Below, one piece after another: positions 39,607 to 41,339 of a stretch of 64,000 nucleotides of DNA. A model generated the notes under the pieces. That model was not told the origin of the DNA and ran no database searches. It was given only the letters and a program-made list of their open reading frames with translations. Each line of letters begins with the position of its first letter. Position 1 is the first letter of the stretch. The stretch comes from Eledone cirrhosa (lineage: Eukaryota), in NCBI GenBank assembly GCA_964016885.1, contig OZ024743.1:23374001-23438000 (forward strand). Reading direction: 5' to 3'. The position numbers and the translations under genes were made by a program.

Positions 39607-41339
39607 AATTAAGTTAAAAATGTACATCTACATATGCATACTAAAATACTAGTGTGTATATGAATACACACACGTATACATATGTAGGTGTAACAAGTCT
39701 TTCACTGGTTGCTTTACTGTGAGCAACCCAGCTATTCTGTATGTAAACACACAGACAAACCGGTTTTTAGAGTCATACTGGTTTTCGGGGGAACACCTTC
39801 CCTCTATTCTCCAGAAAGCCAGACAAGGAATATTGAACTAGTTTCGTTGTTGTTACAACTCATCAGCAATATTTACCTATCTACCGGCCCTTCTGGAGAA
39901 TTGTAAAAGCACATATCGTTATATGCTTTTTCTATGAAAATTAGTAGTGGGCAGACTAATTTGCATAGAGTGTGAGTACGCACCGGTTCAGCGGAGACGA
40001 TAAAAACAAATAACGAAACGAAATTAAATTTCGTTTCGTTTGTAACTCACTTTTGTATGACTGACGCTTAAACAATTAAGTTAAAAATGTACATCTACAT
40101 ATGCATACTGAAATACTAGTGTGTATATGAATACACACACGTATACATATGTAGGTGTAACAAGTCTTTCACAGGTTGCTTTACTGTGAGCAACCCAGCT
40201 ATTCTGTATGTAAACACACAGACAAACCGGTTTTTAGAGTCATACTGGTTTTCGGGGGAACACCTTCCCTCTATTCTTCAGAAAGCCAGACAAGGAATAT
40301 TGAACTAGTTTCGTTGTTGTTACAACTCATCAGCAATATTTACCTATCTACCGGCCCTTCTGGAGAATTGTAAAAGCACATATCGTTATATGCTTTTTCT
40401 ATGAAAATTAGGTTTGTCTGTGTGTTTACACACACTCTATGCAAATTAGTCTGCCCACTACTAATTTTCATAGAAAAAGCATATAAGGATATGTGCTTTT
40501 ACAATTCTCCAGAAGGGCCGGTAGATAGGTAAATATTGCTGATGAATTGTAACAACAACGAAACTAGTTCAATATTCCTTGTCTGGCTTTCTGGAGAATA
40601 GAGGGAAGGTGTTCCCCCGAAAACCAGCATGACTCTAAAAACCGGTTTGTCTGTGTGTTTACATACAGAATAGCTGGGTTGCTCACAGTAGAGCAACCAG
40701 TGAAAGACTTGTTACACCTACATATGTATACGTGTGTGTATTCATATACACACTAGTATTTCAGTATGCATATGTAGATGTACATTTTTAACTTAATTGT
40801 TTAAGCGTCAGTCATACAAAAGTGAGTTACAAACGAAACGAAATTTAATTTCGTTTCGTTATTTGATTTTATCGTCTCCGCTGAACCGGTGCGTACTCAC
40901 ACTCCATGCAAATTAGTCTGCCCACTACTAATTTTCATAGAAAAAGCATATAACGATATGTGCTTTTACAATTCTCCAGAAGGGCCGGTAGATAGGTAAA
41001 TATTGCTGATGAGTTGTAACAACAACAAAACTAGTTCAATATTCCTTGTCTGGCTTTCTGGAGAATAGAGGGAAGGTGTTCCCCCGAAAACCAGTATGAC
41101 TCTAAAAACCGGTTTGTCTGTGTGTTTACATACAGAATAGCTGGGTTACTCACAGTAAAGCAACCAGTGAAAGACTTGTTACACCTACATATGTATACGT
41201 GTGTGTATTCATATACACACTAGTATTTCAGTATGCATATGTAGATGTACATTTTAAACTTAATTGTTTAAGCGTCAGTCATACAAAAGTGAGTTACAAA
41301 CAAAACGAAATTTAATTTCGTTTCGTTATTTGTTTTTAT
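39607..41339. mobile_element. 467-nt HHR-containing tandem repeat (non-LTR retrozyme-like) in head-to-head inverted arrangement
   Basis: About 1.7 units (39607-40411) inverted against about 1.9 units (40430-41339). HHRs at 39829-39873(-), 40296-40340(-), 40532-40576(+) and 40999-41043(+). Flanked by (AT)n. Confidence 0.85.
39829..39873 (-). ncRNA. Minimal type I HHR (intact core)
   Basis: AATATTG CTGATGA GTTG taacaa CAAC GAAAC TA GTT CAATATT. 7-bp stem I; palindromic stem III AACTAGTT. Confidence 0.85.

What the first reader, a model, noticed from the sequence alone, without database searches (positions are those of the whole stretch)
39607..41339. 467-nt hammerhead retrozyme array inserted as a head-to-head inversion in (AT)n
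Seen: a non-coding 467-nt unit repeated about 3.6 times, with one minimal type I HHR per unit. The left arm reads minus and the right arm plus, with a short template-switch-like snippet at 40412-40430. Two HHRs are intact; 40532 has G10.1A and 40999 has G12A. Known: metazoan non-LTR retrozymes are short HHR-punctuated tandem repeats that yield circular RNAs, and palindromic stem III HHRs of PLEs cleave as dimers. Inference: a cephalopod retrozyme family mobilised by PLE RT/GIY-YIG, which would release 467-nt monomers that can circularise.
Basis: partly seen in the sequence, partly recalled or inferred. Interest (0 to 1): 0.85.

Follow-up and report, generated by a model that had tools for sequence, protein, structure and literature searches.

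The report
Two-armed hammerhead retrozyme, Penelope-type insertion
This is one of more than two thousand copies of a 467-base non-coding repeat carrying a hammerhead ribozyme motif, sitting in TA microsatellites as two back-to-back arms that end at two fixed points; it is likely a known kind of parasite (a 'retrozyme') copied by a Penelope-type retrotransposon enzyme, and its predicted self-cutting and circular RNA are untested.

Summary
Observation confirmed: 467-nt unit, 3.7 copies, head-to-head in (TA)n, four type I hammerheads (two intact, one G10.1A, one G12A). The genome holds 4,959 exact hammerhead cores and at least 2,104 insertions. The inversion looks like the primary insertion form, not a later rearrangement. 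One arm ends at site A and the other at site B, about 70 nt downstream (38 of 43 two-armed loci; 56 A, 0 B opposite 81 B ends). This is the Penelope-like element (PLE) 'tail' signature, and an autonomous Neptune-type PLE here obeys the same rule (7 of 7). Both arms share haplotypes, at 4 of 48 loci in register, so they likely copy one RNA. The hammerhead covaries across a 58%-identical sister family. The unit is not the pLTR of any of five PLE families tested; two direct junctions hint at a 784-aa Neptune family as mobiliser. A circular template is unproven: some arrays are uniform (18 of 18 identical), others show distinct terminal units or likely later DNA duplication. Cleavage, expression and the cephalopod host were not established. 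Verdict: new member of a known kind with a testable mechanistic footprint. The scan noted the same kind of element before on other DNA.

The parts
39562..39606 (.). (AT)n target microsatellite, left flank
39607..40411 (-). A arm: 1.72 units, 5'-truncated at unit position 359, outer end at site A (unit position 229, numbered from the HHR cut site)
39829..39873 (-). type I hammerhead, intact core; predicted cut after GUU between 39836 and 39835
   Evidence: fold
39836..40302 (-). the only cut-to-cut 467-nt monomer at this locus that lies between two intact HHRs
40012..40040 (-). 29-nt hairpin of the A-to-B tail region (internal copy; another at 40832-40860)
   Evidence: family D11
40296..40340 (-). 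type I hammerhead, intact core; predicted cut between 40303 and 40302
40412..40430 (+). templated junction snippet (unit positions 76-94; 14 nt not assignable to either arm)
40426..41339 (+). B arm: 1.96 units, 5'-truncated at unit position 324, outer end at site B (unit position 303)
40532..40576 (+). type I hammerhead with G10.1A at 40546 (breaks the base pair of helix II)
40999..41043 (+). type I hammerhead with G12A at 41027 (core position; predicted inactive)
   Evidence: all four public runs laid read G here
41271..41339 (+). 'tail' between site A and site B, present only on this arm, with hairpin 41299-41327
41340..41438 (.). (TA)n target microsatellite, right flank

Best explanation
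This is one copy of a dispersed family of 467-nt non-coding hammerhead repeats, likely a non-autonomous Penelope-like element (animal retrozyme) that a PLE reverse transcriptase/GIY-YIG enzyme inserted in a single two-strand priming event. Shown: (TA)n targets, head-to-head arms, one arm ending at site A and the other at site B about 70 nt downstream, shared haplotypes between arms, short overlaps or templated snippets at the junction, and a conserved, covarying hammerhead. Inferred: the enzyme nicks both strands of (TA)n. One nick primes at B and the other at A on the same uncut multi-unit RNA. Each cDNA reads through hammerhead sites and stops at a variable point, and the two ends join by microhomology. 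The template is likely a linear (or multimeric) transcript in at least some cases and possibly a monomer circle for the long uniform arrays. Some arrays likely grew later by DNA duplication. The hammerhead likely cuts as a dimer or with protein help, which would release 467-nt monomers. The mobiliser is tentatively a 784-aa Neptune-type family.
For: Copy number: 4,959 exact HHR cores, control 0; 2,104 B-end/(TA)n and 1,152 A-end/(TA)n junctions. End rule: 38 of 43 two-armed loci are A+B, 1 is A+A, 0 are B+B, and 4 have one end elsewhere. In an HHR-independent sample of 81 B ends, 56 opposite arms end at A, 7 are A stubs and none end at B. Control: autonomous Neptune-784 shows one A and one B end at 7 of 7 two-armed loci. 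PAc in vitro extends both strands, and its two RT start sites bound the tail (PMC11167929). Same template: 15 of 70 two-armed loci carry a locus-private allele in all pieces of both arms; 5 derived alleles at 4 of 48 loci are shared only by the two terminal units. Junctions: 23 of 43 overlap (1-11 nt, one of 32 nt), 7 are blunt, 13 have 1-15 nt inserts. HHR: core invariant and 6 of 14 pairs changed on both sides across three lineages. Sites A and B lie at homologous positions in a sister family only 58-59% identical.
Against: No cleavage, RNA or circle was observed. No autonomous PLE shares DNA with the unit among five families tested, so the partner rests on two junctions (L257, L275) among about 140 family loci examined. 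L275 is B+B and may be a later insertion or deletion. One locus is A+A (L107). Only 1 of 104 arm 5' ends lies within 5 nt of the HHR cut site, so insertions carry no direct trace of cleavage. Helix III is predicted unpaired in the monomer. PAc showed no strand difference in RT start site (PMC11167929), so strict A/B pairing needs an extra, untested coordination step. B-primed synthesis past A needs strand displacement or sequential copying, which is inferred. The covariation rests on only about three independent lineages and on a structure I drew myself.
Confidence: 0.78

Rival explanations
1. Same element and same PLE machinery, but the second arm arises by self-priming (fold-back) of the first strand, and the tail is removed from one end when the endonuclease resolves the intermediate (model in PMC3846280 and PMC8557442).
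For: It explains shared haplotypes and in-register variants equally well. A few junctions are near-palindromic (L017, L094, L259, L274). It is the published model for head-to-head PLE repeats.
Against: In 10 of 38 A+B loci the A arm is longer than the B arm minus the tail. Some B arms are shorter than the tail itself (L049, L261, L274), which excludes a simple B-first fold-back. Most junctions are not palindromic. PAc nicks and extends both strands from fixed internal RNA sites (PMC11167929). An A-first version with trimming is not excluded.
Confidence: 0.13
2. The template is always a 467-nt circular RNA, and array length records rolling-circle reverse transcription (the retrozyme cycle proposed in PMC7229834). 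This differs from the best explanation only in the template.
For: Long arrays identical across both arms: 18 of 18, 9 of 9 and 14 of 16 monomers. Arms read through up to about 19 HHR sites. The monomer folds strongly (z -8.6; circular MFE -148.5). Circles are shown for coral, mussel and axolotl retrozymes (PMC7229834).
Against: Alleles found only in the two terminal units at 4 of 48 loci require a template whose last unit differs. 25 alleles are shared within one arm only, with 2-, 3- and 4-unit periods. Duplicated loci L026/L029 and L028 differ by one unit, so arrays change length as DNA. Uniform arrays could also come from uniform source arrays or recent expansion.
Confidence: 0.2
3. The unit is simply the pLTR of an autonomous PLE, and the arrays are its truncated ends.
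For: Same insertion footprint and HHR type as PLE pLTRs. Xenopus retrozymes are related to pLTRs (10.64898/2026.07.22.740005). Not every PLE family in the genome was sampled.
Against: None of 81 B-anchored insertions continues in sense into a PLE ORF without intervening (TA)n, and no PLE ORF runs into the unit in the 78 earlier loci screened. The unit is colinear with a second non-coding family over its whole length. Five PLE families share no DNA with it. An ancient pLTR origin remains possible.
Confidence: 0.05
4. Satellite DNA spread by DNA-level processes (unequal crossover, circular DNA), with the inversion a later rearrangement and the hammerhead incidental.
For: Copy-number change after insertion is likely at several loci. 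Li et al. invoke unequal crossover for array growth.
Against: More than two thousand dispersed loci with base-precise A and B ends in (TA)n, variable 5' truncation, templated junction snippets and a covarying HHR.
Confidence: 0.03

Closest known systems
Animal non-LTR retrozymes (Cervera & de la Pena 2020, PMC7229834, passages read; Li, Clavereau & Pollet 2026, 10.64898/2026.07.22.740005, parts 1-3 of 5 read, supplements not seen)
   Same: Non-coding tandem unit, one type I HHR per unit, GC 37%, highly structured RNA, thousands of copies, co-occurring with autonomous PLEs.
   Different: The unit is 467 nt (170-400 nt in the 2020 paper, 51-972 bp in the 2026 preprint). The parts I read do not describe two-armed insertions with fixed A/B ends ('inverted' occurs 0 times in PMC7229834). 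No pLTR relative was found here. The RNA is untested.
EN+ Penelope-like element insertions (Craig et al. 2021, PMC8557442; Arkhipova et al. 2013, PMC3846280; passages read)
   Same: Partial tandems, inverted 5'-truncated arm, tail at one end only, (TA)n targeting as in Neptune, Hydra and Naiad; pLTR sequence alone suffices for mobilisation in trans.
   Different: No ORF. The tail is about 70 nt rather than 30-40. The published explanation is self-priming or endonuclease resolution rather than paired priming.
PAc Poseidon element in vitro (Frangieh et al. 2024, PMC11167929, parts 1-2 of 4 read)
   Same: Two internal RT start sites bounding the tail, both strands nicked and extended, predicted dimer, uncut RNA as the dominant template, AT-rich target.
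   Different: PAc is autonomous and showed no difference in start site between strands, whereas here A and B are paired almost without exception.
LINE-1 twin priming (Ostertag & Kazazian; recalled, not from a call)
   Same: Two target nicks prime on one RNA and give a head-to-head inversion joined by microhomology.
   Different: The second L1 priming site is variable and the first cDNA stops at it; here the second site is fixed and most B arms run far past it.
Non-autonomous Chlamys elements such as MRC1 (PMC8557442, passage)
   Same: Non-autonomous PLE with multicopy head-to-tail insertions.
   Different: Those generally share 3' sequence with an autonomous family, and most Chlamys elements lack canonical HHRs.

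Membership tests
Animal non-LTR retrozyme | Short non-coding tandem unit of low GC | tested here: met
   467 nt, 36.8% GC, no open frame through the unit
Animal non-LTR retrozyme | Type I HHR in each unit, at least two consecutive complete motifs | tested here: met
   Two consecutive intact HHRs on the minus arm; 226 of 235 sites intact in fetched loci, a sample biased toward intact cores; covariation
Animal non-LTR retrozyme | Dispersed multi-copy family | tested here: met
   4,959 exact cores; at least 2,104 insertions
Animal non-LTR retrozyme | Self-cleavage in vitro | not testable with these tools
   Helix III is predicted unpaired in the monomer; the palindrome self-duplex is -6.6 kcal/mol. 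Only 1 of 9 Xenopus dimers cleaved in 10.64898/2026.07.22.740005.
Animal non-LTR retrozyme | Expressed as linear and circular monomer RNA | tested here: inconclusive
   Array patterns are mixed; no run of known RNA type could be examined
Non-autonomous EN+ PLE | Inverted 5'-truncated arm and tail at one end only | tested here: met
   38 of 43 loci A+B; 56 A and 0 B opposite 81 B ends
Non-autonomous EN+ PLE | Microsatellite (TA)n target | tested here: met
Non-autonomous EN+ PLE | Sequence shared with an autonomous partner | tested here: inconclusive
   None in five families; other families not sampled; two direct junctions to Neptune-784
Autonomous PLE (unit = pLTR) | RT and GIY-YIG ORF in sense tandem with the repeat | tested here: not met
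   0 of 81 B-anchored insertions; none in 78 earlier loci screened
Minimal PLE HHR (PMC4209133) | No helix III or loop 3; bulged base between A9 and 10.1 | tested here: not met
   2-bp helix III with palindromic 2-nt loop and no extra base

The most novel reading that the evidence does not exclude
An asymmetric PLE enzyme dimer grips one retrozyme RNA across its 70-nt tail and copies that same molecule twice, from site A on one target strand and site B on the other, displacing as it goes. The 9-kb uniform arrays are rolling-circle copies of a 467-nt RNA circle. The enzyme is borrowed from a Neptune family that shares no detectable sequence with the parasite and in which no canonical hammerhead was found. 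The genome would then be a readable record of the PLE integration step and of circular-RNA retrotransposition.
Probability: 0.25. Interest if true: 0.75.

Novelty: new member of a known kind. Interest (0 to 1): 0.45.

Why it matters
How PLEs make their tandem and inverted insertions, and whether animal retrozymes move through circular RNA, are stated as open in PMC8557442, PMC11167929 and 10.64898/2026.07.22.740005. This family supplies thousands of young insertions with two base-precise start sites, a near-strict pairing rule, a named candidate enzyme with intact ORFs, and a 467-nt template small enough for an in vitro test. The element class itself is known, and this copy is already decaying (2 of 4 HHRs mutated).

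Tried and rejected
Rfam scan of the window at gathering thresholds: no match.

Partner search by DNA similarity. No similarity beyond TA-rich noise or neighbouring retrozyme insertions in: Neptune-775, Hydra-like 821-aa, the window's 36251 family and Neptune-784, and the L159 family.

L082 looked like a chimera with another Neptune-like fragment; it is short, old and ambiguous, and was not counted.

Arm 5' ends apparently at unit position 1 were an artefact of a monomer query. With multimer queries, 1 of 104 lies within 5 nt of the cut. The 11 of 104 at positions 6-27 (about 5 expected, window chosen after the fact) coincide with the extended helix I and its microhomologies, so I rejected them as evidence of cleavage.

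One search's printed differences included ties and gap-placement noise and were replaced. One search's three 'off-register' cases were ancestral alleles and were replaced by the polarised count.

Expression: no RNA holder listed. Four runs of unrecorded type hold the unit. A test of whether they are RNA could not be completed, so they are not used for expression.

My note that a third HHR family was non-autonomous was wrong: it is the 3' end of an autonomous PLE.

Literature searches listed no paper on twin priming by PLEs or on octopus retrozymes. The library lacks most subscription papers and bioRxiv supplements were not seen, so absence from print is not established.

Full report
Observation. 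The element spans 39607-41339 between two (TA)n tracts. A minus arm of 805 nt and a plus arm of 914 nt are built from a 467-nt unit, 3.68 units in all, and are 98% complementary over 810 nt. Each unit has a type I hammerhead: helix I 7 bp, CUGAUGA, helix II 5 bp, GAAA, a 2-bp helix III with a palindromic loop, and GUU at the cut. The two minus-arm motifs are intact; the plus-arm ones carry G10.1A (40546) and G12A (41027). A 19-nt copy of unit positions 76-94 sits at the junction. Helix I continues into a long stem (z -3.5) and the monomer is highly structured (z -8.6). In the circular fold helices I and II form (pair probabilities 0.66-0.99) but helix III does not, which fits the dimer requirement described in PMC4209133 (passages). 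Rfam has no match.

Family. The 3.0-Gb genome holds 4,959 exact copies of a 37-nt HHR core, control 0. A DNA search found 801 candidates and scored 40 of them, giving 192 matches. Subfamilies are about 98%, 93% and 85% identical to the window unit. A sister family of 422-440 nt is colinear at 58-59% identity. Across the window family, its old subfamily and the sister family, the catalytic core and the helix III palindrome are invariant and 6 of 14 pairs change on both sides. None of 500 shuffles reached the covariation score, but only about three lineages are independent and I drew the structure myself. The HHR thus appears selected, which suggests it matters for spread; cleavage itself is not shown.

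The inversion is the insertion form. Numbering from the cut site, arms end at site A (229-234) or site B (301-303). Of 61 loci (35 best matches including the window, 26 position-ordered or incidental; duplicates L028 and L029 left out), 43 are two-armed: 38 A+B, 1 A+A, 0 B+B, and 4 with one end elsewhere (p about 1e-10 for 38 of 39 against random pairing). An HHR-independent sample used 81 of the first 100 listed B ends on contig C1 (18 were already in the first set, 1 was not fetched; one duplicated pair is included). It gave 56 opposite arms ending at A, 7 A stubs, 0 at B, 4 elsewhere, 11 single arms and 3 running off the fetch. Genome-wide there are 2,104 exact B/(TA)n and 1,152 exact A/(TA)n junctions (the A pattern is stricter). 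This is the PLE 'tail', present at one end only (PMC8557442 and PMC3846280, passages). In PAc its limits are the two RT start sites, with both target strands nicked and extended and uncut RNA the dominant template (PMC11167929, parts 1-2 of 4). As an internal control, an autonomous 784-aa PLE with the Neptune-type CX4CXXC linker shows one A and one B end at all 7 loci where both ends were seen, of 9 fetched. A second autonomous family also shows two alternative ends (5 loci printed).

One template. In 67 two-armed loci the terminal units of the two arms differ by a median of 2 and at most 10 of about 200 nt. In 15 of 70 loci an allele absent from the 7 nearest other pieces is in all pieces of both arms. 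Among 48 loci with three or more pieces there are 157 private derived alleles, 25 shared within one arm, 5 shared only by the two terminal units (4 loci) and 2 other cross-arm cases. Both arms therefore likely copy the same RNA in register. Junctions show 1-11 nt overlaps (22 loci, plus one of 32 nt at the hairpin), blunt joins (7) or 1-15 nt inserts (13). A simple fold-back from the B strand is contradicted by 10 of 38 loci where the A arm is too long and by B arms shorter than the tail. A fold-back with endonuclease trimming is not excluded.

Circle or not. For: arrays with 18 of 18, 9 of 9 and 14 of 16 identical monomers across both arms. Against an obligatory monomer circle: terminal-unit alleles, one-arm periods of 2, 3 and 4 units, and duplicated loci that differ by one unit. 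These point to multimeric templates and to later DNA duplication, the route favoured by Li et al. (parts 1-3 of 5). Only 1 of 104 arm 5' ends lies at the cut site. By inference, read-through transcription of a two-armed locus would form a long hairpin that hides the HHRs, so monomers would need a start inside the unit. A conserved ATGCAAAT (octamer-like, label recalled) lies about 95 nt upstream of the HHR in both families and is an untested candidate. Expression could not be assessed.

Partner. None of five PLE families shares DNA with the unit, and no insertion runs in sense from a PLE ORF, so the unit is not a co-amplifying pLTR. Two loci join the retrozyme directly, without (TA)n, to 5'-truncated Neptune-784 sequence. 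L257 has a Neptune arm ending at its A site (94-95% identical to young copies over the coding part), a roughly 40-nt templated snippet and a retrozyme arm ending at B. L275 has a Neptune B end on one side and the retrozyme B end on the other, and could be a later event. This is a lead of about even odds, since these families crowd the same microsatellites. No canonical HHR was found in one Neptune-784 copy scanned.

Comparison and verdict. It works like an animal non-LTR retrozyme (PMC7229834, passages) inserted by PLE machinery, and it meets the sequence criteria; the RNA criteria are untested. Eight literature searches listed no paper on paired A/B priming in retrozymes, within the limits of the library. 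Earlier notes of this scan report the same pattern in other families of this genome and in other genomes; I had recorded my reading before seeing them, and they are not independent support. The host taxon was not established (one search gives only bivalve-associated names). New member of a known kind; interest 0.45.

Noticed in passing
window 5815-6696 (-), HHR-like motif near 5447 (-); L109-L116: 3' piece of a very young autonomous Neptune-type PLE (775-aa RT-EN ORF plus a 476-aa upstream ORF, 4,211-bp tandem and inverted arrays, many near-identical intact copies) with a small HHR whose helix III is AGTACT.
   Followed up: partly
window 58593-59917 (+); L119-L148: PLE that I label Hydra-like from recall of its N-terminal motif (821-aa intact ORFs elsewhere), with a type I HHR at 58593 that has a long helix II.
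   Followed up: partly
window 35284-38073 (+): Frameshifted two-ORF Neptune-type PLE about 1.5 kb left of the array; no DNA similarity to the unit; related to the intact 784-aa family.
   Followed up: partly
L089:1810-2250; L149-L178: Sister retrozyme family (422-440 nt, 2,123 candidates) with GUA cut triplet, U-U at the base of helix II, homologous A and B sites and apparently the same two-armed insertions.
   Followed up: partly
L257 (G000:C1:41489400-41494100) and L275 (G000:C1:69440800-69445500): Direct junctions between retrozyme arms and 5'-truncated Neptune-784 sequence with templated snippets.
   Followed up: partly
L043:945-993: The older subfamily has the GUC cut triplet and a compensatory swap in helix II; the young subfamilies have GUU.
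   Followed up: no
L216-L235: Autonomous PLE family whose 3' end carries an HHR and two alternative ends about 57 nt apart; often next to retrozyme insertions in the same (TA)n.
   Followed up: partly
window 30742-33786: 107-bp tandem array, 28 copies, 97% matches.
   Followed up: no
window 12377-15062 (+): Gypsy-like pol ORFs (RT, RNase H, integrase by inspection), in two frames.
   Followed up: no
window 52859-54290: GC-rich 33-bp/6-bp repeat open in five frames (poly-Pro, poly-Gly, poly-His).
   Followed up: no
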